64,000 nucleotides of DNA, from assembly GCA_902612825.1 (NCBI GenBank), contig CACMET010000001.1, positions 35,014 to 99,013 of the forward strand, in the 5' to 3' direction. The stretch is from an uncultured Alphaproteobacteria bacterium (lineage in GTDB: Bacteria; Pseudomonadota; Alphaproteobacteria; HIMB59; GCA-002718135). The position numbers were made by a program, and so were the translations under genes. Below the pieces are notes generated by a model. That model searched no databases. It saw only the letters and a program-made list of their open reading frames with translations, and was not told the DNA's origin. Of this stretch, positions 3,548-49,050 are shown one piece after another; position 1 is the stretch's first letter, and every line of letters begins with the position of its first letter.

Positions 3548-4274
3548 CTACAAAATAACATTAGAATATGATGGAACTAATTATGTTGGTTGGCAACGTC
3601 AAGAAAATGGTCCTTCTGTTCAACAATTGGTTGAAGAGGCAATAGAAAAACTATCAAAACAAAAAATAACACTTTTTGGAGCTGGTCGAACAGATGCAGG
3701 CGTTCATGCTAGAGGACAAGTAGCTAATTTTGAATTAGAGCAACAATTTGATACCGATACTATTAGAGATGGCATTAACCATTATCTAAGGCCCCAACCC
3801 ATATCTATTTTACATGCTGAAGAAGTAGATAAAGATTTTAATTCTAGATTTTCCGCAAAATTGAGATGGTATGAATACAAGATCTTAAATAGAAGATCAC
3901 CAATTACGTTAGAGCAAAACAAAGTTTGGTGTGTACACAAAAAAATAGATGCTGAAAAAATAATAAAACAATCACAACAATTTATAGGCAAATTTGATTT
4001 GTCTGCTTTTAGGTCAATAAATTGCCAATCGAAATCACCAATTAAATCTATTAATTCACTGGATATAAATTTTAATCATGATGAAATAAATTTTTTAATA
4101 TCAGCTAAATCCTTTTTACATTCTCAAGTTAGAATCATGGTCGGTACACTGGTTGATATAGGACTTAGTAAAATAGAAAAATCTATTTCAGAAATTATTC
4201 AATCCAAAAAAAGGGAATATGCTGGAGTTACTGCGCCACCTGAAGGATTATATTTATTGAAAATAGATTATTAA
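3540..4274 (+). CDS. truA: tRNA pseudouridine(38-40) synthase TruA
   Basis: 244 aa. GAGRTDAGVHA catalytic-Asp motif. Confidence 0.93.
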   Translation: MPNYKITLEYDGTNYVGWQRQENGPSVQQLVEEAIEKLSKQKITLFGAGRTDAGVHARGQVANFELEQQFDTDTIRDGINHYLRPQPISILHAEEVDKDFNSRFSAKLRWYEYKILNRRSPITLEQNKVWCVHKKIDAEKIIKQSQQFIGKFDLSAFRSINCQSKSPIKSINSLDINFNHDEINFLISAKSFLHSQVRIMVGTLVDIGLSKIEKSISEIIQSKKREYAGVTAPPEGLYLLKIDY

Positions 4275-18493: not shown

Positions 18494-19288
18494 ATGGAAA
18501 TAAATAAAATTACGAATTTATTGAATCTGGAGCATGTTAAGTTTTTAATATCTATCTTTAAAGAAAATAATATTGAAATTCGATTAGTAGGAGGATGTAT
18601 ACGAGATGCTCTTCTTGAAAGAGAAATCAAAGATATTGATACAGCAACAACCTTGGAGCCTCAGGATGTTTTGTCATTACTAAAAGAGAACAATATTGAA
18701 TATGATGATTTTGCTATTCGATATGGATCTATAATTGCTTATCCTCATAATCGAAAAATACAAATTACAACTTTACGTGAAGATATTAATCAAATGGGAA
18801 GACATACAAATGTAATTTACACCAACAGCTGGAAAAAAGATTCAGCCAGAAGAGATTTTACTTTCAATGCTTTATATGTTGGAAACAATAATAAACTACA
18901 TGATTATTACAATGGCCAATCAGATTTAAATGAGAGTAAAATTTGTTTTATTGGTGAAATAGAGGATAGAATAAAAGAAGATTACCTAAGAATCTATCGA
19001 TACTTTAGATTTAGAGGTTTATTTAATTTACCTAATACATCTTTAAGTGATCAAAAAATTGTAGAAAAATACATTCACGAATCTTTGGCAGTGTTGACCA
19101 ACGATGTAATAAGGCAAGAAATATTAAAAATGTTTAATATGTCTTTTCCTTTAAATTGTTTTTACATATCTCATCAAACGTTACAAAAATTTAAATGGGT
19201 TGAGATAGTACAAGAGCATTTCATACGAACAAAATATGATCTTGGATTAAATAAATGTCTGAATAAGATTGATAATTTAATAAATTAG
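18494..19288 (+). CDS. Class II tRNA nucleotidyltransferase / poly(A) polymerase family, head+neck only (264 aa)
   Basis: GGCIRDALL, DIDTAT, TLRED, RRDFTFNALY and EDYLRIYRYFRF motifs. Ends where the convergent zur gene ends. Confidence 0.8.
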   Translation: MEINKITNLLNLEHVKFLISIFKENNIEIRLVGGCIRDALLEREIKDIDTATTLEPQDVLSLLKENNIEYDDFAIRYGSIIAYPHNRKIQITTLREDINQMGRHTNVIYTNSWKKDSARRDFTFNALYVGNNNKLHDYYNGQSDLNESKICFIGEIEDRIKEDYLRIYRYFRFRGLFNLPNTSLSDQKIVEKYIHESLAVLTNDVIRQEILKMFNMSFPLNCFYISHQTLQKFKWVEIVQEHFIRTKYDLGLNKCLNKIDNLIN

Positions 19289-19689
19289 TTTTTTAGTTTA
19301 CAATTTTCGCACAAACCAAATATTTCTAAATTATGTTTTTTATAATTGAAGTTATTTTTTTCTGCTTGTTTTGAAAAATAAGAAAACAAATTATTTCCAG
19401 TTAGCTCAGTAACACTATCACAGTTTTCACATATCAAAAAAGATGTAGAAGTTTTTGCATTACAGCCTTCATGCTTACAAGCAACATATGAATTTCTACT
19501 TTCTATTTTATGTACTTTGCCAATTTCTATAAGCTTATCTAAAGCTCTATAAACTTGAAGAGGAGATTTAATTCCTTTTTTTTGAATATCAAAAAGAATT
19601 GTATATGCCTTAAGAGGTTCTGATGCGCTTTCTAAAATATCAAGAACTGTTTGTTGATTTTTAGTTAAGTTTAAAGTTTCTAAAGACAT
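19285..19689 (-). CDS. zur: Fur-family zinc uptake regulator
   Basis: 134 aa. Winged-helix N-terminus and two CENC pairs. Last gene of the znuC-znuB-zur string. Confidence 0.75.
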   Translation of the reverse strand: MSLETLNLTKNQQTVLDILESASEPLKAYTILFDIQKKGIKSPLQVYRALDKLIEIGKVHKIESRNSYVACKHEGCNAKTSTSFLICENCDSVTELTGNNLFSYFSKQAEKNNFNYKKHNLEIFGLCENCKLKN

Positions 19690-19708: not shown

Positions 19709-20515
19709 CTATCGTTTTTGCAACTGACCCTTAATTTCAAGAGGAACTAATGAAATAATGAAAAGTATTAAAGCCACCACTATTATCGAAGGCCCTGAAG
19801 AAGTATTTATTTCTAAAGAAGCAAATAATCCAACTACTACTGATAAAATACCTGATAAGATTGCGATAACAATCATTTGTCTAGGACTGTTGCTAATGTT
19901 TCTGGCAATAGCTGCAGGAATTAAAAGCAAACCTGTAATTAATAGTGCCCCAATCATTTTTATAGACAAAGCAATTACTCCTGCCAATAAAAGGGTAAAT
20001 ATAAAATTAGAAAATTCAGGCCGCATACCTTCAGCAGCTGACAAATCATAATTTACAGTTGCTGAAAATAAAGATTTCCAAATAAAATATAAGATAATTA
20101 ATATTATGCTTCCACCTATCCAAACTAAACCAATGTCTGCAGTTGTCACTGCAAGAATATCGCCAAATAATAATCCCATGAGATCAAATCGGATGTAAGA
20201 TAAAAAACCAATCAATACTAAACCGATGGCAAGTGTTGAGTGAGCAAGAAGTCCAAGTAAAGAATCTCCAGCTAGTTTTGTTCTTTTTTGTAAGCTTACA
20301 AGAAGTAAAGCAACAACAGCTGATATTACAAACACAGAAAAAGCAATATTTAAACTAAATGAGTATGCTAATGTTACTCCTAAAAGGGCTGAGTGAGATA
20401 AGGTGTCACCAAAATATGATAACCTCCTCCAGATAACTAAACATCCAAGTGGTCCAGCAACAATAGCTATACCAACCCCTGCAACAAGTGCACGAATAAA
20501 AAAATCATCAAACAT
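19709..20515 (-). CDS. znuB: Zinc ABC transporter permease
   Basis: 268 aa, multi-TM ABC-3 type permease between znuC and zur. Confidence 0.88.
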   Translation of the reverse strand: MFDDFFIRALVAGVGIAIVAGPLGCLVIWRRLSYFGDTLSHSALLGVTLAYSFSLNIAFSVFVISAVVALLLVSLQKRTKLAGDSLLGLLAHSTLAIGLVLIGFLSYIRFDLMGLLFGDILAVTTADIGLVWIGGSIILIILYFIWKSLFSATVNYDLSAAEGMRPEFSNFIFTLLLAGVIALSIKMIGALLITGLLLIPAAIARNISNSPRQMIVIAILSGILSVVVGLFASLEINTSSGPSIIVVALILFIISLVPLEIKGQLQKR

Positions 20516-21258
20516 TAATTTTTAACACTCCCATCTGTCTGATGTGAATGATCATGTTCATGTTGATAGAGCGATAGGGTAGCAGCATTATGTTCTCCAA
20601 ATAATTCTATGTAGGAAGAATTTTTTACTATTGATTTAGGTGATCCAGAACAACAAATGTGACCATTTAAACAAATTACATGATCTGTTGCAGACATAAC
20701 AAAATGGAGATCATGAGATATAAGAAGGATGCCACAATTTAATTTGGTACAAATTTCTTTTATAAGATTGTATAGAGCTATTTCTCCATTAAAATCTACT
20801 CCCTGCACAGGTTCATCTAAAACAAGTAGATCTGGTTTTTTAGCAATTGCTCTTGCGATTAAAACTCTCTGAAATTCTCCACCAGATAAGTTATGAATCT
20901 CATTGTATATTAAATGCTGAACCCCTGTTAATTCTAGAGCTTCAATAATTTCATCTTTATTAATATGACTTGTTAGATTCATAAAATCTATAACTCGAAG
21001 TGGCATAGTCCAATCAATACTAATTTTTTGAGGAACATATGCCATTTTTGTTGAATAATTTTCAATTGAACCTTCATCTGATTTTAGAATATTAAGTGCC
21101 ATTTTAGCGGTAGTTGTTTTTCCTGAGCCATTTGGGCCAATCAAGGTTACAATTTTGCCCTTGTGAATTTCAAGAGAGATACCTTTTACAATCCATTTTG
21201 AAGATTTTTGGACACCGCAATCTTTTAATCTTACCAATAAATTATTATTTTCGTTCAT
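20515..21258 (-). CDS. znuC: Zinc ABC transporter ATP-binding protein
   Basis: 247 aa. Walker A GPNGSGKTT, signature LSGGEFQR, Walker B LLVLDEP, His-rich tail HEHDHSHQ. Confidence 0.88.
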   Translation of the reverse strand: MNENNNLLVRLKDCGVQKSSKWIVKGISLEIHKGKIVTLIGPNGSGKTTTAKMALNILKSDEGSIENYSTKMAYVPQKISIDWTMPLRVIDFMNLTSHINKDEIIEALELTGVQHLIYNEIHNLSGGEFQRVLIARAIAKKPDLLVLDEPVQGVDFNGEIALYNLIKEICTKLNCGILLISHDLHFVMSATDHVICLNGHICCSGSPKSIVKNSSYIELFGEHNAATLSLYQHEHDHSHQTDGSVKN

Positions 21259-21280: not shown

Positions 21281-21298
21281 GTAATATTATAACATTAC
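21281..21298. promoter_or_regulatory. Zur-box-like palindrome in the znuC / znuA divergent region
   Basis: GTAATATTATAACATTAC, an 18-bp inverted repeat with one mismatched pair. Right half TATAACATTAC resembles the recalled Zur consensus half TATAACATTTC. Lies 23 bp from the znuC start and 40 bp from the znuA start. Confidence 0.6.
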
Positions 21299-21337: not shown

Positions 21338-22429
21338 ATGAGACAAAACAACATTTTTTTGATGCTTTTGAAAGTATTTTTCTTTTCATTAATTTTAGTT
21401 GCAACTTCAGCTGTAAGAGCAGAATTAAAAGTTGTAACTACAATTAAACCACTTCATTCACTAATTGCGAATGTAATGGATGGTGTAGGTGAGCCAGCAC
21501 TTATAATTGAAGGAAGTACTTCCCCCCATAGCTTTACATTAAAACCTTCTCATGCCAAACTTTTAGAAGAAGCAGATATCATATTCTGGGTTGGTGAAAG
21601 TATAGAAACGTTCATGGAAAGACCTCTTGAGTCAATTGTCAAAAATGCAGAAGTTGTAGAGTTCATGGAAGTTGAAAGTATTAATAGATTGAAGTTTAGA
21701 GAAGAATCGATTTTTGAAGATCACGATGACCATGATGATCACGATGACCATGATGATCATGACGACCACGATGACCATGATGATCATGACGACCACGATG
21801 ACCACGATGATCATGACGACCACGATGACCACGATGATCATGACGATCATGACGACCACGATGATCATGACGATCATGATGATTACGATGATCACAGTGG
21901 ACACGATCACCACGGTCATGCACATGGTGAATTCGATTCTCACATTTGGCTAGATCCAATGAATGCTAAAGAAATGGTTCATGAAATTGCTCATGAGTTA
22001 GGTGATTTAGATCCAGCAAATAAGAATAAATATGAAGCTAATGCACAAGCTACAATCCAAGCGCTAGATCAATTAGTTAACGATATTGAAAAAGGAATAA
22101 ATAAAGATGCAAAGTTTGTTGTCTTCCATGATGCTTATCAATACTTTGAAGAAAGATTTGGAGTTAGGGCTGCTGGAGCACTTACTTTGAATACAGATGT
22201 TTTACCTGGTGCTAAACAGATCACTGATATTCAAGATGTAATTAAGGAAAGAGGAATAAAATGTATTTTTTCTGAACCTCAGTTTAATCCAAAGATAATT
22301 ACAACAATAGCTGAAGACATGAATATCAAAACAGGAGTTTTTGATCCTCTAGGTGCTAATATTGACTCAAATAAAGATCTTTATTTTAAGTTAATACAAA
22401 ACCTAGTAAATGAACTTAAAGGTTGTTAG
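21338..22429 (+). CDS. znuA: Zinc ABC transporter substrate-binding protein with giant His/Asp-rich loop
   Basis: 363 aa. Signal peptide, cluster A-I SBP fold pattern (LKPSHA, FVVFHDAYQYF, FSEPQF). Central (HDD)18-YDD-HSGHDHHGHAHG insert. Confidence 0.9.
   Translation: MRQNNIFLMLLKVFFFSLILVATSAVRAELKVVTTIKPLHSLIANVMDGVGEPALIIEGSTSPHSFTLKPSHAKLLEEADIIFWVGESIETFMERPLESIVKNAEVVEFMEVESINRLKFREESIFEDHDDHDDHDDHDDHDDHDDHDDHDDHDDHDDHDDHDDHDDHDDHDDHDDHDDHDDYDDHSGHDHHGHAHGEFDSHIWLDPMNAKEMVHEIAHELGDLDPANKNKYEANAQATIQALDQLVNDIEKGINKDAKFVVFHDAYQYFEERFGVRAAGALTLNTDVLPGAKQITDIQDVIKERGIKCIFSEPQFNPKIITTIAEDMNIKTGVFDPLGANIDSNKDLYFKLIQNLVNELKGC
21722..21883 (+). repeat. Coding tandem repeat: 18 x 9-nt (CAY GAY GAY) units with an exact 27-nt tandem duplication (21785-21811 = 21812-21838)
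   Basis: Counted codon by codon from the sequence. Units differ only at synonymous third positions. Confidence 0.95.
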
Positions 22430-22458
22430 AAATATATTTTAAATATTAAATTTAAATA

Positions 22459-22483
22459 GAGGGTGTTAACTAACAGCACCCTC
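22459..22483. terminator. Hairpin GAGGGTG-(11 nt)-CACCCTC downstream of znuA
   Basis: Perfect 7-bp stem 30 nt after the znuA stop. On the minus strand it is followed by a T/A-rich run. Overlaps the 3' end of the Cys-rich micro-ORF. Confidence 0.45.
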
Positions 22484-22553
22484 CACCTTCACAAGTACAG
22501 CAACAGCTACAACTGCAACCACACTTTGGTGGGTTTGGATTTTGATTTTTCAT
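22470..22553 (-). CDS. Cys-rich micropeptide (27 aa, 9 Cys), metallothionein-like candidate
   Basis: ATG at 22553, TAG at 22470. Translation MKNQNPNPPKCGCSCSCCCTCEGGGCC. The segment is visibly GC-richer than other spacers here. It is the only ATG-initiated ORF in the znuA-pirin gap. Confidence 0.4.
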   Translation of the reverse strand: MKNQNPNPPKCGCSCSCCCTCEGGGCC

Positions 22554-22596
22554 AATCATACCTATATCTATATCTGAATAATTTTTAAACAAATTT

Positions 22597-23454
22597 ATGA
22601 GAAAAATTATAGAAATTAAAGAGTGTATGAAGACTTTCGAGGGTGACGGGATACCTGTAACGAGAGCTTTCCCTGTCCCTGGAATGAGAGAAAATGATCC
22701 TTTTCTTCTTTTTGATCATTTCGGCCCAATTAATTATGAACCAGGAGGGGCAACTGGTGTACCAGCACATCCTCATTGTGGATTTGAGGCAATTACTTAC
22801 ATGCTTGGTGGTGAAGTAGAACACAGAGACTCATTTGGTGGACAAGCAGAAATTGAAACTGGTGATGTACAATGGATGACAACTGGATCAGGTTTAATCC
22901 ACTCTGAATTAGTAACAGAAAAATTTAAGAAGAGTGGAGGTGTCATGCAAGGATTACAAATCTGGGTTAACCTTCCAAAAAAAAATAAAAAAGTTAAACC
23001 TTGGTATCAACATATTAAAAGAAACACTATTCCAACAGTATCTGAAAATGCAAATATAGAAATTAAAGTTCTTGTGGGTGAAATAAATGGAACCAAATCC
23101 AAAGTTCAAACATATTCACCTGTATCAATATTTGATATTCAATTTTCAAAACCAGATATGACAAAGTTTAATGTTGATAAAGAACAAAATCTTATGATCT
23201 ATATTATCGATGGTCAATTACAATTTAATGAGGAAGATAAAATCGCTAATAAAGGTGATATGATTTACTTTGATCAGTCAAGTGATGAGATTAAACTTAC
23301 ATCGATATCAGAAAAAGGATCCTACCTAGTTTTAGCAGGTAAGCCGCTTAAAGAACCTGTAGCACGTTATGGTCCTTTTGTGGCAAATTCTGAAGGAGAA
23401 ATCAAGCAAGCAATGATGGACTATCAAGAAGGAAAGATGGGAAGCTTAGCTTAA
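22597..23454 (+). CDS. Pirin family protein
   Basis: 285 aa. HPHCGFE metal motif, bicupin length. Confidence 0.9.
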   Translation: MRKIIEIKECMKTFEGDGIPVTRAFPVPGMRENDPFLLFDHFGPINYEPGGATGVPAHPHCGFEAITYMLGGEVEHRDSFGGQAEIETGDVQWMTTGSGLIHSELVTEKFKKSGGVMQGLQIWVNLPKKNKKVKPWYQHIKRNTIPTVSENANIEIKVLVGEINGTKSKVQTYSPVSIFDIQFSKPDMTKFNVDKEQNLMIYIIDGQLQFNEEDKIANKGDMIYFDQSSDEIKLTSISEKGSYLVLAGKPLKEPVARYGPFVANSEGEIKQAMMDYQEGKMGSLA

Positions 23455-24521: not shown

Positions 24522-25814
24522 ATGGATAAGAATCGAAAAGTACATCAGTTTAAAAATCCCGTCCTTAATTGGATAGAGTTTCGTTTACCAATTATTTCTT
24601 ACTTCAAAAAAGAATACGGTGATTATCCAATGCCTAAAAATTGTAATTATTTTTGGAGTTTTGGTGCATTAGCAACAATTACGCTTGTTACAATGATAGT
24701 AAGTGGAATTTTTCTTGCAATGAATTACACACCACATACTGATATGGCATTTGATAGTGTTGAAAGAATAATGCGAGATGTCAATTATGGATGGTTAATG
24801 CGATACATCCATTCCAATGGTGCAGCCTTTTTCTTCATCATAGTCTACATTCATATAGTAAGAGCAATGTATTTTGGTTCTTACAAATATCCAAGAGAGC
24901 TTAATTGGATTTTAGGTGTATTTATATTTTTATTAATGATGGCAACTTCTTTTCTTGGTTACACATTACCGTGGGGACAAATGTCTTATTGGGGAGCTAC
25001 AGTTATAACAAATTTATTTAGTGCAATTCCATTTATTGGTGAGGGATTAAAGACATGGCTTCTTGGTGATTACAATGTTGGAAATGCTACATTAAACCGT
25101 TTCTTTGCTCTTCATTATGTTTTACCATTTGTTATTTTTGGTGTTGTAGGATTACATGTTGCTGCAGTCCATGTTCATGGTTCAAATAACCCTGATGGGA
25201 TTGATATTAAAACTAACAATGACTCAGTAAACTTTTTTCCGTATATGTTAATTAAAGATACAGTAGCTATGTGTGCTTTTGGTGTTGCTATTTCTGCAGT
25301 AATATTCTTTGGACCAAATCTTATGGCTGAAGTTGATAATTATATTCCAGCAGATCCACTTGTTACTCCAGCTCACATTGTTCCAAACTGGTATCTTGCA
25401 CCTTTTTATGCAATTTTAAGAGCAGTACCTGATAAATTAGGAGGAGTTCTTCTAATGTTTGGTGCGATAGTAATTCTCTTTGTTCTACCTTGGCTTGATA
25501 GATCAAAAGTGAGAAGCTGTAATTATAGACCAATATATAAGTGGTTTATGATGGGCTTTTTTGTTAACTTCTTTGCATTAGGCTACGTTGGTATGCTTCC
25601 TGCTGAAGGTTTATATCTTTTAATTGCTAGAGTAGGTTTACTTTACTACTTTGGTTTTTTCTTTATCATTACACCTTTTGTTGGTTGGATAGAGAAGCCA
25701 AGTAAGCTACCACTCAGTATTAGTGATGTTTATGCTAAAAATATAGCTCCTAATATTGGTGGAGGAGAAAAAGGAATTCCTTCACCAGCAATGCAAAAAG
25801 ATACAAATCTATAA
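24522..25814 (+). CDS. petB: Cytochrome b
   Basis: 430 aa. Haem-ligand helices (RYIHSNGAAFFF, HYVLPF). The Qo motif reads PNWY. Confidence 0.95.
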   Translation: MDKNRKVHQFKNPVLNWIEFRLPIISYFKKEYGDYPMPKNCNYFWSFGALATITLVTMIVSGIFLAMNYTPHTDMAFDSVERIMRDVNYGWLMRYIHSNGAAFFFIIVYIHIVRAMYFGSYKYPRELNWILGVFIFLLMMATSFLGYTLPWGQMSYWGATVITNLFSAIPFIGEGLKTWLLGDYNVGNATLNRFFALHYVLPFVIFGVVGLHVAAVHVHGSNNPDGIDIKTNNDSVNFFPYMLIKDTVAMCAFGVAISAVIFFGPNLMAEVDNYIPADPLVTPAHIVPNWYLAPFYAILRAVPDKLGGVLLMFGAIVILFVLPWLDRSKVRSCNYRPIYKWFMMGFFVNFFALGYVGMLPAEGLYLLIARVGLLYYFGFFFIITPFVGWIEKPSKLPLSISDVYAKNIAPNIGGGEKGIPSPAMQKDTNL

Positions 25815-47730: not shown

Positions 47731-49050
47731 CTAAATTTTTTCTCCTGCTGGTTTTCCATATCCAACATTTTTTTTCCCATATCGTCTTACTCTCACATTA
47801 CATTGTTCTGCATGACCTATAAAACCTTCTAAATGTGAAAGTCTAGATCCATATTCTCCAATGAGAGTTGCAGCTTCATCTGTCATAATCTTTTGATAAG
47901 TATGGGTTTTAATGAACTTACCAACCCACAAACCACCAGTATATCTTCCAGCTTTTTTAGTAGGAAGAGTATGGTTAGTACCTATCACTTTGTCACCGTT
48001 AGCAACATTAGTTCTAGCACCCAAAAATAGAGCTCCATAAGATGTCATATTTTCTAAAAACCAATCATCTTTTTTTGTCATAACTTGAACGTGTTCTGAA
48101 GCTATTTCATTTGCTTTAGATAACATCTCCTCATAAGTATCACATAAAATCATTTCTCCATAATCTCTCCAGCTTGTACTTGCTGTTTCTTTAGTAGGTA
48201 AAATTTCTAAAATTCTATCAATTTCTTTAAATGTTTCTTCTGCAAGTTTTCTTGAATTTGTTATCATCACAGCAGGAGAATTATATCCATGTTCAGCTTG
48301 TCCTAATAAGTCTGTTGCACATATTTCACCATCAACAGTTTCATCTGCAATTACCATTGTTTCAGTTGGACCGGCAAATAAATCGATACCAACTTTGCCA
48401 TACAATTGTCTTTTCGCTTCAGCAACAAATGCATTGCCAGGTCCAACAAGCATATCTACAGGTCTAATAGTTTCTGTACCAATAGCCATAGCACCAACTC
48501 CTTGCATTCCTCCCAAAACATAAATTTCGTGAGCACCACCCATTTTCATTGCTGTAACGACAGCTGGATTTGGCTTACCTTTAAAAGGCGGTGTAGTGGC
48601 AACAATTCTTGGAACCCCAGCAACAGAGGCAGTAACAACTGACATATGAGCAGAAGCTACCATTGGGAATTTTCCGGCAGGTACATAACATCCAACTGCT
48701 TGCACTGGTATATTTTTATGACCAAGTATCACACCTGGATGCGTTTCTACTTCTAATTCACTTAAAGTTTTAAGTTGTGCTTCCGCAAATGATCGCACTT
48801 GTTTTTGAGCAAATTTAATATCTTCTTTGTCATCATCAGAGACTTCACTCATTAATTGATTTATTTGCTCTTCACTTAATCTAAAACTATCTGGAGAATA
48901 GTTATCAAATTTTTGAGATAACTCTCTAATATGTTCATCTCCTTCTGATTCAATTTTACTTAATGTTTCCTCAACAATTTTTTTTACTTTATCATTATCT
49001 TCAATTCTTTGTTTTTCATCCAAACCTTTTTTTAAATATTCAATTGCCAT
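47731..49050 (-). CDS. Histidinol-dehydrogenase-family NAD-dependent dehydrogenase (HpsN-like candidate)
   Basis: 439 aa. GCYVPAG, GPGNAFVAEAK, GQAEHGYNSP, GTNHTLPT and GHAEQ regions retain HisD Zn/catalytic residues. No other his genes nearby. Confidence 0.85.
   Translation of the reverse strand: MAIEYLKKGLDEKQRIEDNDKVKKIVEETLSKIESEGDEHIRELSQKFDNYSPDSFRLSEEQINQLMSEVSDDDKEDIKFAQKQVRSFAEAQLKTLSELEVETHPGVILGHKNIPVQAVGCYVPAGKFPMVASAHMSVVTASVAGVPRIVATTPPFKGKPNPAVVTAMKMGGAHEIYVLGGMQGVGAMAIGTETIRPVDMLVGPGNAFVAEAKRQLYGKVGIDLFAGPTETMVIADETVDGEICATDLLGQAEHGYNSPAVMITNSRKLAEETFKEIDRILEILPTKETASTSWRDYGEMILCDTYEEMLSKANEIASEHVQVMTKKDDWFLENMTSYGALFLGARTNVANGDKVIGTNHTLPTKKAGRYTGGLWVGKFIKTHTYQKIMTDEAATLIGEYGSRLSHLEGFIGHAEQCNVRVRRYGKKNVGYGKPAGEKI

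What the first reader, a model, noticed from the sequence alone, without database searches (positions are those of the whole stretch)
22470..22553. Unannotated 27-codon ORF with 9 cysteines next to the zinc-uptake locus: metallothionein-like micropeptide
The minus-strand ORF MKNQNPNPPKCGCSCSCCCTCEGGGCC is one-third Cys, arranged as C-x-C, CCC and terminal CC, with no aromatic residues. This is the compositional signature of metallothioneins, but it does not resemble the SmtA/BmtA-type bacterial family as I recall it. It occupies the 167-bp gap between znuA and pirin. The DNA there is conspicuously GC-richer than other spacers in this window, which argues for selection on coding or structure. 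A 7-bp hairpin (22459-22483) covers its 3' end. It is too short for standard gene callers and for the supplied track. It may be a novel metal-buffering or chaperone peptide coupled to Zn acquisition.
Basis: partly seen in the sequence, partly recalled or inferred. Interest (0 to 1): 0.7.

Follow-up and report, generated by a model that had tools for sequence, protein, structure and literature searches.

The report
Cysteine-rich micro-gene beside SAR11 zinc locus
A real, strongly conserved but unannotated 27-codon gene in SAR11 ocean bacteria encodes a peptide that is one-third cysteine and always sits at the end of the zinc-uptake gene cluster, so it is probably a tiny metallothionein-like metal-binding peptide, although metal binding itself is still untested.

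Summary
Window 22470-22553 (-) encodes MKNQNPNPPKCGCSCSCCCTCEGGGCC. The stretch is 44% GC, against 12-16% in the flanking spacers.

It is a genuine protein-coding gene.
- It occurs in 80 related SAR11 loci: 41 distinct 84-nt versions, 77 of 79 exactly 84 nt, and a start codon in 78 of 79.
- Variable sites fall 5/5/21 by codon position. pN/pS is 0.06.
- All nine Cys codons alternate between TGT and TGC.
- The peptide stays 100% identical where the neighbouring ZnuA is only ~73% identical.
- Homology between lineages begins at the ATG and ends at the stop codon.

The gene is always convergent with the last gene of the zur-znuCB/znuA(-COG0523 cassette) zinc cluster (77 of 77 loci that could be scored). 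Its other neighbour varies between pirin and murJ.

It is an orphan. It has no Pfam, NCBIfam or PDB match. An exhaustive HMM search of 1.84 billion proteins returned only its own mis-called copies. I found no literature on it. Some SAR11 lineages with the same synteny lack it.

It meets the compositional definition of a metallothionein but belongs to no known family. No Zur box precedes it.

Best reading: a new metallothionein-like micro-peptide tied to zinc homeostasis. That it codes for a peptide is shown; that it binds metal is inferred.

The parts
22470..22553 (-). 27-codon gene plus TAG stop: MKNQNPNPPKCGCSCSCCCTCEGGGCC
   Evidence: Conserved in 80 loci; pN/pS 0.058; variable sites 5/5/21 by codon position.
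22524..22553 (-). Codons 1-10, the hydrophilic Pro/Asn-rich N-terminal segment MKN[Q/E/K]NPN[P/S]PK
   Evidence: It is nearly as conserved as the core. Sequence 5' of this ATG cannot be aligned between lineages, which fixes the start codon.
22473..22523 (-). Codons 11-27, the Cys core CGCSCSCCCTCEGG[G/D]CC with 9 Cys in 17 residues
   Evidence: Every Cys codon is seen as both TGT and TGC. 15 of 19 variable sites are at third codon positions. Position 25 (G or D) is the only common polymorphism.
22454..22488 (-). Stem-loop overlapping codons 22-27 and the stop codon, followed by an A/U-rich tail; the likely terminator of the micro-gene, possibly bidirectional with znuA
   Evidence: -16.6 kcal/mol, z = -2.8. 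In murJ-lineage loci a longer version is followed by UUUUU (-24.1 kcal/mol, z = -4.1). It is present only in znuA-adjacent loci, all of which have codon 25 = GGG (26 of 26). The simple consensus scan did not call it a terminator.
22554..22596 (.). 43-nt divergent spacer shared with pirin. It holds a weak candidate promoter for the micro-gene: TTGTTT at 22587-22592 and TAGATA at 22565-22570, read on the minus strand
   Evidence: Found by eye. In murJ-type lineages a conserved block TTG[A/C]AA-N16-TAnnnn ends 5-8 nt before the start codon, which would suggest a leaderless or nearly leaderless mRNA. The consensus scanner does not detect it. Low confidence.
21338..22429 (+). znuA, the periplasmic zinc-binding protein with a long (DH)n loop; convergent neighbour of the micro-gene
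   Evidence: Pfam ZnuA, E = 5e-62.
21281..21298 (.). Zur box GTAATATTATAACATTAC in the divergent znuC/znuA promoter region
   Evidence: the only match in 64 kb, with 0 mismatches. It matches 14 of 15 positions of EMSA-verified Paracoccus denitrificans Zur sites (PMC5387054).
19285..21258 (-). zur (FUR family, 19285-19689), znuB (19709-20515) and znuC (20515-21258)
   Evidence: Pfam FUR, ABC-3 and ABC_tran.
22597..23454 (+). Pirin, the divergent neighbour in this lineage only
   Evidence: Pfam Pirin and Pirin_C. murJ takes its place in other lineages.

Best explanation
The ORF is a genuine, independently transcribed gene for a 27-residue cytosolic peptide. Its nine thiols form a metal-thiolate cluster, so it is a new, very small metallothionein-like peptide.

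It belongs to the SAR11 zinc-homeostasis island (zur, znuCB, znuA, with or without the COG0523/WD40/p84/DUF1636 cassette). Most likely it buffers, stores or hands on Zn(II) brought in by ZnuABC, or captures Cd or Cu that enters by the same route. By analogy with 9-Cys metallothionein domains it would hold about 3 divalent ions.

Shown: it is protein-coding, it is under strong purifying selection on the amino-acid sequence, and it is linked to the zinc cluster.

Inferred:
- Translation in vivo.
- Metal binding, and which metal.
- That its invariably convergent placement lets Zur-controlled transcription of the zinc operon oppose its expression, so the peptide would be made when zinc is sufficient and silenced when uptake is induced.
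For: Evidence that it is coding:
- 60 pirin-anchored loci hold 30 distinct nucleotide versions, 59 of them exactly 84 nt.
- Over 79 loci there are 41 versions. Start codons are ATG in 74, GTG in 2, TTG in 2 and ATA in 1. 77 of 79 are 84 nt. pS is 0.43 against pN 0.025.
- Variable sites fall 5/5/21 by codon position, binomial p = 9e-5, and all nine Cys codons occur as both TGT and TGC.
- Distinct codon variants split 19 synonymous to 11 nonsynonymous, although there are only 13.3 synonymous sites against 64.7 nonsynonymous sites.
- The peptide is 100% identical with 6-10 synonymous codon differences in loci where ZnuA is ~73-74% identical.
- Alignability between lineages starts at the ATG and stops at the stop codon.
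- RNAalifold gives only one-sided G-U/G-C changes and no compensatory pairs.
- The wobble-aligned antisense frame has no start codon.

Evidence for an independent transcription unit:
- A terminator-like stem followed by a U-run lies on the ORF strand.

Evidence for the link to zinc:
- The downstream convergent neighbour is znuA in 26 loci, p84 in 33 and the DUF1636 gene in 18, giving 77 of 77 loci that could be scored.
- The upstream neighbour is pirin or murJ.
- The window contains no murJ, trpS or nifU, so the zinc cluster plus ORF occupies different genomic places in different lineages.
- The cluster carries a FUR-family gene, a canonical Zur box and a COG0523 GTPase.

Compositional criteria for a metallothionein:
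- 27 aa, 33% Cys, C-x-C, CC and CCC motifs, and no aromatic residues or His.

Precedent:
- In the oligotrophic marine Synechococcus WH8102, one Zur represses znuABC and activates a metallothionein that banks zinc (PMC9337993).
- SAR11 keeps high-affinity zinc uptake as its one exception to minimised metal uptake (PMC4771312).
Against: - There is no experimental or omics evidence of transcription, translation or metal binding.
- It has no sequence similarity to any metallothionein family (Pfam and NCBIfam at E <= 10; PDB).
- No Zur motif lies within 200 nt in any lineage. The best matches have 3-5 mismatches out of 15, the same as background.
- No convincing promoter or Shine-Dalgarno sequence was found.
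- The gene is dispensable. It is absent from SAR11-type loci with the same znuA-murJ synteny (L323) and from other ZnuA-bearing relatives (L324-L328). About 4 of 80 copies carry possibly disabling changes: a frameshift in L052, C11F plus E22K in L054, an ATA start in L285 and C27Y in L201.
- The strongly conserved N-terminal decapeptide is not explained by a pure metal-sponge role.
- All copies come from one part of the SAR11 radiation, so synteny could partly reflect shared descent rather than shared function.
- Fifty-three percent Cys in the core is denser than classical metallothionein domains (from memory), so the coordination chemistry may differ.
Confidence: 0.5

Rival explanations
1. 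The peptide is real and translated, but its job is not metal buffering. Its dense thiols or its conserved N-terminus could serve another role: a redox or persulfide carrier, a small regulatory partner of a zinc-cluster protein (COG0523, ZnuBC or Zur), a reduced-sulfur reserve in a reduced-sulfur auxotroph, or a precursor that enzymes encoded elsewhere modify.
For: The coding evidence is the same as for the main explanation. The N-terminal MKNxNPNPPK is almost as conserved as the Cys core, which points to a specific interaction rather than a generic metal sponge. No metal-responsive operator lies upstream. The family is an orphan with no similarity to metallothioneins.
Against: The only invariant genomic association is with the zinc cluster. 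The composition fits the metallothionein definition point by point. No modifying enzyme, transporter or redox partner is adjacent in any of three downstream and two upstream contexts. In the window the peptide is kept without the COG0523 cassette, so it does not depend on that cassette.
Confidence: 0.3
2. The conserved GC-rich segment is a non-coding element, either a small RNA, a znuA terminator or antisense element, or a DNA site, and the reading frame is incidental.
For: A stable stem-loop overlaps the 3' end. The segment lies between convergent genes, where terminators are expected. ORF-less relatives have a plain hairpin at the same place that shares the arm TTCCACCTT. No promoter or Shine-Dalgarno sequence was detected. 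A weak Rfam hit to STnc300 scores 18.7 bits against a gathering score of 80 and is not significant.
Against: 21 of 31 variable sites are at third codon positions, and pN/pS is 0.058. Length is fixed at 84 nt with no in-frame stop in 77 of 79 copies, and a start codon is kept in 78 of 79. Conservation covers the whole ORF, including the 5' two-thirds that lie outside the hairpin. The hairpin itself is absent in the 51 loci where the neighbour is p84 or DUF1636, yet the ORF is unchanged there. RNAalifold finds no double-sided compensatory changes.
Confidence: 0.06
3. It is a Cys-rich leader or arrest peptide that senses cysteinyl-tRNA or reduced-sulfur supply, or ribosome stalling at the PP motif, and attenuates a downstream gene.
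For: It has nine Cys codons in 27. SAR11 depends on exogenous reduced sulfur (general knowledge). An NPNPP stretch and a hairpin at the 3' end look superficially like an attenuator.
Against: No co-oriented gene lies downstream in any of the 77 loci that could be scored. The next gene is always convergent, 27-70 nt away. The hairpin is missing in two of the three contexts. A leader peptide would not need every non-Cys residue conserved.
Confidence: 0.03
4. It is a chance ORF in a GC-rich spacer.
For: None beyond its small size.
Against: Shuffles of the window never exceed 7 Cys in a short ORF. The ORF is conserved in 80 loci with the signatures of purifying selection.
Confidence: 0.01

Closest known systems
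Bacterial metallothioneins of the SmtA/BmtA family (Pfam PF02069), including the Zur-activated BmtA of marine Synechococcus WH8102
   Same: It is a small cytosolic Cys-rich protein with 9 Cys, as SmtA has (from memory). It occurs in an oligotrophic marine bacterium whose zinc uptake is ZnuABC under Zur. The proposed role of banking or buffering zinc alongside high-affinity uptake matches PMC9337993.
   Different: There is no sequence similarity. It is half the length, has no His ligands or aromatic residues, and shows no zinc-finger-like fold signature. No Zur or SmtB operator lies upstream. The gene is physically attached to the znu cluster, whereas bmtA (synw0359) in WH8102 lies apart from znuABC (synw0969-0971).
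Minimal eukaryotic metallothioneins and metallothionein domains: the Neurospora crassa 25-26-aa Cu-MT (7 Cys) and the mammalian MT beta-domain (9 Cys, M(II)3Cys9). This comparison is from memory and was not tested here.
   Same: The size class is the same, C-x-C motifs such as CGCS are shared, and aromatic residues are absent. Nine thiols would suit a three-metal thiolate cluster.
   Different: There is no homology. The core is much denser (9 Cys in 17 residues, with CCC and a terminal CC). It has a conserved Pro/Asn-rich N-terminal decapeptide. It is bacterial and linked to a zinc-uptake cluster.
MymT, the 53-aa Cu(I) metallothionein of Mycobacterium tuberculosis
   Same: It is a lineage-restricted bacterial metallothionein with no homology to SmtA, found as a short overlooked ORF (mentioned in PMC7387436).
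   Different: The sequence and the metal context (the copper regulon) differ. MymT is twice as long. Nothing here points to copper regulation.
Zur-regulon accessory proteins, such as the COG0523 zinc metallochaperones
   Same: It is encoded in the same cluster. A COG0523 gene lies between znuA and the micro-gene in two-thirds of the loci. COG0523 genes are induced by zinc limitation in the alphaproteobacterium P. denitrificans (PMC5387054).
   Different: It is a peptide, not a GTPase. It is on the opposite strand and has no Zur box, so if it is regulated by zinc at all, the regulation probably has the opposite sign.
Cys-rich RiPP precursors (methanobactin MbnA, SCIFF/ranthipeptides, MNIO substrates). 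This comparison is from memory.
   Same: It is a short ORF with clustered Cys that gene callers commonly miss.
   Different: No maturase, radical-SAM, MNIO or export gene is adjacent in any context. There is no leader/core architecture. The genome is streamlined.

Membership tests
Metallothionein (phenomenological class) | Low molecular mass (below about 10 kDa) | tested here: met
   27 residues, about 2.7 kDa.
Metallothionein (phenomenological class) | High Cys content (about 15-35%) in C-x-C, C-C and C-x-x-C type motifs | tested here: met
   9 of 27 residues (33%), arranged C-x-C-x-C-x-CCC-x-C-x4-CC. All nine are conserved through TGT/TGC changes.
Metallothionein (phenomenological class) | Aromatic residues absent or very rare | tested here: met
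   No F, W, Y or H in the window copy. One of 80 copies has C27Y and one has C11F.
Metallothionein (phenomenological class) | Binds several metal ions in metal-thiolate clusters, with the characteristic spectroscopy and stoichiometry | not testable with these tools
   This needs peptide chemistry (ESI-MS, UV/CD titration). Structure prediction without metals would not be informative and was not run.
SmtA/BmtA bacterial metallothionein family (Pfam PF02069) and all other Pfam/NCBIfam metallothionein families | Significant match to the family profile | tested here: not met
   hmmscan against Pfam-A and NCBIfam at E <= 10 returned 0 families for both the 27-aa and 40-aa forms. phmmer against PDB sequences at E <= 10 returned 0.
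SmtA/BmtA bacterial metallothionein family | His residues taking part in the Zn4Cys9His2 cluster, and a zinc-finger-like fold with aromatic residues (feature recalled from memory) | tested here: not met
   The peptide has no His or aromatic residue.
Zur regulon member | A Zur box in the promoter region | tested here: not met
   The best matches within 200 nt upstream, across 11 lineage representatives, have 3-5 of 15 (or at least 6 of 18) mismatches. That equals the background level. The znuC/znuA spacer scores 0 mismatches.
Zur regulon member | Zinc-dependent expression | not testable with these tools
   No expression data were accessible.
Leader peptide / transcription attenuator | A co-oriented regulated gene immediately downstream, with alternative terminator and antiterminator structures | tested here: not met
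   The next gene is convergent in 77 of 77 loci. The hairpin is present in only one of the three contexts.
RiPP precursor peptide | A neighbouring maturase or modification enzyme, or an export gene | tested here: not met
   The neighbours are ZnuA, cobW/COG0523, WD40, p84, DUF1636, pirin or MurJ.
Structured non-coding RNA (any Rfam family) | Match above the gathering score, or covarying base pairs | tested here: not met
   The best Rfam hit scores 18.7 bits against a threshold of 80. RNAalifold found no double-sided compensatory pair.

The most novel reading that the evidence does not exclude
SAR11, the most abundant bacterial clade in the ocean, carries an unannotated founding member of a new metallothionein family. 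At 27 aa it would be the smallest bacterial metallothionein-like peptide, and it is built into the zinc-uptake island. It would let these streamlined cells bank or safely handle zinc (or co-imported Cd or Cu). Its expression would be set inversely to uptake without a dedicated operator, through convergent transcription from the Zur-controlled znuA operon across a terminator that is itself made of the gene's last six codons.
Probability: 0.3. Interest if true: 0.8.

Novelty: new variant of a known kind. Interest (0 to 1): 0.66.

Why it matters
Zinc in the surface ocean is present at picomolar free concentrations. SAR11 keeps high-affinity zinc uptake as its one exception to an otherwise minimal set of metal transporters (PMC4771312). 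How these cells hold and distribute zinc once it is inside is not known.

A dedicated thiolate peptide in the zinc island would add a storage or buffering term to models of SAR11 zinc and cadmium quotas, and so to the marine Zn and Cd cycles.

It would also be a new, minimal metallothionein scaffold, with 9 Cys in 17 residues.

It is a concrete example of a strongly selected gene that is invisible to gene callers. There are 9 mis-called copies among billions of predicted proteins, and it is absent from a 2026 SAR11 gene catalogue.

The peptide is short enough to synthesise, so the central claim can be tested quickly.

Tried and rejected
- Family searches with the 27-aa and 40-aa forms (Pfam, NCBIfam) found nothing.
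- Rfam at a permissive threshold gave only sub-threshold noise.
- PDB sequence search found nothing.
- The word-indexed protein search and an exhaustive profile search of 1.84 billion representatives returned only the family's own mis-called copies, so no distant homologues were found.
A family-specific pattern found no viral copy.
- In the metagenome pattern scan, about 100 of 120 hits were (TGC)n-type low-complexity DNA.
- Zur-box searches near the ORF were negative.
- Consensus promoter and terminator scans did not call a promoter for the ORF, and did not call the stem-loop a terminator. My by-eye promoter (TTGnnn-N16-TAnnnn, 5-11 nt before the start) is therefore only a suggestion.
- Looking up the window's own pirin to identify the source genome failed because there is no exact match on record.
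- The leader-peptide, RiPP, non-coding RNA and chance readings were considered and rejected for the reasons given under the rival explanations.
- Structure prediction was not run. A metal-free model of a 27-residue thiolate peptide would be uninformative.
- Loci L065, L069, L070 and L072, where the zinc cluster has a different arrangement near pirin, end before the 3' end of znuA. Presence of the ORF there could not be scored.
Full report
**1. The observation**

The minus strand of window 22470-22553 reads ATG AAA AAT ... TGC TGT TAG. It translates to MKNQNPNPPKCGCSCSCCCTCEGGGCC. Nine of the 27 residues are Cys, arranged C-x-C-x-C-x-CCC-x-C-x4-CC. There is no aromatic residue and no His.

The ORF fills the middle of the 167-bp gap between znuA and pirin.
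- znuA is on the + strand and ends at 22429 (Pfam ZnuA, E = 5e-62).
- Pirin is on the + strand and starts at 22597 (Pfam Pirin and Pirin_C).
- The ORF is convergent with znuA, 40 nt stop to stop. It is divergent from pirin, 43 nt between the start codons.

GC content is 0.44 over the ORF. It is 0.125 and 0.16 in the two spacer remnants, and 0.29 for the whole window.

A stem-loop covers the 3' end.

Chance does not explain the Cys density. In 20 shuffles of the window, the richest ORF of 45 aa or fewer had 4-7 Cys. The only other Cys-dense ORFs in the window are off-frame stretches inside long genes.

**2. Is it a gene?**

I anchored on the pirin protein and fetched 80 loci from one-genome-per-species bacterial assemblies. 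Nearly all are SAR11-type single-cell genomes. Every locus that had usable upstream sequence and a pirin at least 91% identical to the window's carries the ORF in the same place.

Counts over these loci:
- The 60 copies comprise 30 distinct nucleotide sequences. 59 are exactly 84 nt. One (L052) has a 1-nt deletion in a G-run near the 3' end.
- Adding copies from metagenome contigs gives 79 loci with 41 distinct 84-nt versions.
- Start codons are ATG in 74, GTG in 2, TTG in 2 and ATA in 1. Length is 84 nt in 77 of 79.

The substitution pattern is that of a protein under strong purifying selection:
- Variable sites fall 5/5/21 on codon positions 1/2/3, binomial p = 9e-5. In the Cys core the split is 2/2/15.
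- Each of the nine Cys codons is found as both TGT and TGC.
- Mean pairwise pS is 0.43 and pN is 0.025, a ratio of 0.058.
- Distinct codon variants are 19 synonymous against 11 nonsynonymous, although synonymous sites are only 13.3 of 78.
- In loci where ZnuA is only ~73-74% identical to the window's, the peptide is 100% identical with 6 synonymous codon differences. One locus (L273) has 10 synonymous and 0 nonsynonymous differences.

Between lineages the DNA is alignable only from the ATG to the stop codon. The 5' flank varies and carries indels. That rules out the upstream in-frame ATG and TTG as start codons. The 3' flank is completely different in three groups of loci.

Control frames do much worse than the sense frame. 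One antisense frame shares wobble positions with the sense frame and therefore mimics its synonymous/nonsynonymous split (19:13). That frame has 23 codons between stops and no start codon.

RNAalifold on the 41 versions gives a weak structure with only one-sided G-U/G-C changes and no compensatory pairs. Rfam gives nothing near threshold.

I therefore regard the coding status as established, short of direct detection of the peptide.

**3. Genomic context**

The window carries these features, in order:
- zur (FUR family, 19285-19689, -)
- znuB (-)
- znuC (-)
- a perfect palindromic Zur box, GTAATATTATAACATTAC, at 21281-21298
- znuA (+)
- the micro-gene (-)
- pirin (+)
- trmL (-)

The Zur box matches 14 of 15 positions of Zur sites verified by EMSA in Paracoccus denitrificans (PMC5387054).

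In many close relatives, three or four more genes lie between znuA and the micro-gene. All are co-oriented with znuA:
- a cobW/COG0523 GTPase with a His/Asp-rich stretch
- a WD40 protein
- an 84-aa protein with a CHEPDCPP motif and no family match
- sometimes a DUF1636 protein

Across all 79 loci the gene convergent with the micro-gene is always the last gene of this zinc cluster: znuA in 26, p84 in 33 and DUF1636 in 18. Two loci end at a contig edge.

The other neighbour is not constant. In contigs found independently of pirin it is murJ in 6 and pirin in 5. The 64-kb window contains no murJ, trpS or nifU. In a murJ-type genome the order is two-component system, zur, znuB, znuC, znuA, murJ, trpS, nifU. 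So the zinc cluster with the micro-gene at its edge occupies at least two different genomic neighbourhoods.

The link is therefore to the zinc cluster, not to pirin.

**4. Distribution**

The family is an orphan and is patchy.
- A word-indexed search of 5.8 billion proteins found 8 calls. An exhaustive profile search of 1.84 billion cluster representatives also found 8 hits, 7 of them the same proteins, for 9 distinct calls in all. All are this same peptide with spurious 5' extensions or the L052 frameshift. None is named.
- No viral contig carries it.
- It is absent from a genome with the same znuA-murJ synteny (L323). There the 210-nt spacer holds only a plain hairpin. It is also absent from three other ZnuA-bearing relatives, including MarineAlpha5.
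- About 4 of 80 copies have possibly disabling changes.

So the gene is accessory, yet under strong constraint wherever it is present.

I found no mention of the sequence, or of a SAR11 metallothionein, in the searchable literature. That includes a study of SAR11 trace-metal genes and a 2026 SAR11 gene catalogue.

**5. Transcription signals**

Where znuA is the direct neighbour, codon 25 is always GGG (26 of 26). Codons 22-27 then pair with the sequence just after the stop codon.

In murJ-type loci the structure is 5'-AAGGUGGAGGGUGUU...AACACCC...UCCACCUU-3' followed by UUUUU. It folds at -24.1 kcal/mol with z = -4.1. The U-run is on the micro-gene's strand only. This looks like the micro-gene's own intrinsic terminator, perhaps also serving znuA.

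Where p84 or DUF1636 is the neighbour, codon 25 is GAT (Asp) or another Gly codon, and this hairpin is absent. Hence the hairpin is a context-specific add-on and not the reason the segment is conserved. It also explains the one common amino-acid polymorphism, G25/D25.

ORF-less relatives keep the arm TTCCACCTT in a simple hairpin.

Upstream, murJ-type lineages share a block TTG[A/C]AA-N16-TAnnnn that ends 5-8 nt before the start codon. The window has TTGTTT-N16-TAGATA ending 11 nt before it. This would mean a leaderless or nearly leaderless mRNA. The consensus scanner does not call these sites, so I give this low weight.

No Zur motif lies near the micro-gene in any lineage.

**6. Mechanism**

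Shown: a conserved 27-residue coding sequence with nine invariant Cys, attached to the zinc-homeostasis island.

Inferred: the peptide is cytosolic, since it has no signal sequence. Its thiols form a metal-thiolate cluster. By analogy with 9-Cys metallothionein domains (from memory, the mammalian beta-domain M(II)3Cys9 and SmtA Zn4Cys9His2) it could hold about three divalent ions or more Cu(I).

Genomic context favours zinc. Cadmium or copper entering through the same route is an alternative.

The closest functional precedent is marine Synechococcus WH8102. There one Zur represses znuABC and activates a metallothionein, allowing zinc to be banked (PMC9337993).

Here no operator is visible. The invariably convergent, tightly spaced arrangement (27-70 nt between the stop codons) suggests an untested alternative. 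When Zur releases the znuA operon under zinc scarcity, transcription running into the micro-gene could oppose its expression, giving the same inverse logic.

The conserved N-terminal MKNxNPNPPK is not explained by a pure sponge model. It may be a docking, stability or translation feature. This is the main reason I keep a sizeable rival in which the peptide has another thiol-based or partner-binding role.

**7. Comparison with known families**

By the phenomenological definition of metallothioneins (small, Cys-rich, C-x-C and C-C motifs, no aromatic residues) three of the four features are met. The fourth, metal-thiolate clusters, cannot be tested here.

By homology it belongs to no known family. 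No Pfam or NCBIfam metallothionein model and no PDB sequence matches it. It lacks the His and aromatic residues of SmtA/BmtA.

It fails the tests for the other classes considered:
- Zur-regulon member: no Zur box.
- Attenuator leader peptide: no co-oriented downstream gene.
- RiPP precursor: no maturase nearby.
- Known RNA family: no match.

**8. Verdict**

Its interpretation is partly supported: the coding status, the conservation and the zinc-locus linkage are now well founded, while metal binding remains an inference.

I rate it a new variant of a known kind, namely a new and unusually small metallothionein-like family. Interest is moderately high, because it sits in the most abundant marine bacterium, bears on oceanic zinc and cadmium handling, has escaped annotation entirely, and can be tested quickly with a synthetic peptide.

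Noticed in passing
window 21338-22429 (znuA), about 21700-21960: ZnuA carries an exceptionally long (DHD)n His/Asp loop of roughly 25 repeats. Its repeat number varies among relatives, with ZnuA homologues ranging from 307 to 363 aa. It looks like a rapidly evolving metal-capturing loop.
   Followed up: partly
L001 1110-3809; L004 1583-3853 (absent from the window): An accessory cassette, cobW/COG0523 GTPase, WD40 protein, 84-aa CHEPDCPP protein and sometimes a DUF1636 protein, is present or absent between znuA and the micro-gene among near-identical SAR11 genomes. The 84-aa protein has no Pfam family.
   Followed up: partly
window 21281-21298: A perfect 18-bp palindrome, GTAATATTATAACATTAC, lies in the znuC/znuA divergent spacer. 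It is the only match in 64 kb and matches 14 of 15 positions of EMSA-verified Zur sites of Paracoccus denitrificans.
   Followed up: yes
L323 5047-5257; L327 3602-3703: SAR11-type loci without the micro-gene have a simple hairpin, TTCCACCTT-loop-AAGGTGGAA, after znuA. In loci with the micro-gene the arm TTCCACCTT is retained but pairs with codons 22-24 (GAAGGTGGA) of the gene. This hints at how the gene and the terminator became interlocked.
   Followed up: partly
L052 (upstream of the pirin at 4001): A 1-nt deletion in the GGTGGAGG run shifts the frame in the last codons and extends the ORF to 47 aa. This aberrant form is the only copy annotated in an NCBI record (P0008). It could be a single-cell assembly error or a decaying copy.
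   Followed up: partly
window 48581-48715 (-) and 25070-25189 (+): Two other Cys-dense ORFs, with 9 Cys in 36 aa and 8 Cys within 20 aa. Both lie off-frame inside long genes (a 439-aa ORF at 47731-49050, and petB) and contain aromatic residues. They are artefacts.
   Followed up: yes
L060 (contig CAXRJK010000080.1): A 2.4-kb contig filed under a Winogradskyella MAG encodes SAR11-type pirin and trmL (77% and 65% identity to the window's). This is probably binning contamination.
   Followed up: no
window 22463-22555 (+): A 30-aa GTG-started ORF lies antisense to the micro-gene (MLTNSTLHLHKYSNSYNCNHTLVGLDFDFS). Its start falls outside the conserved segment, and substitutions in its frame are mostly nonsynonymous (4 synonymous against 28 nonsynonymous). 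It is not a gene.
   Followed up: yes
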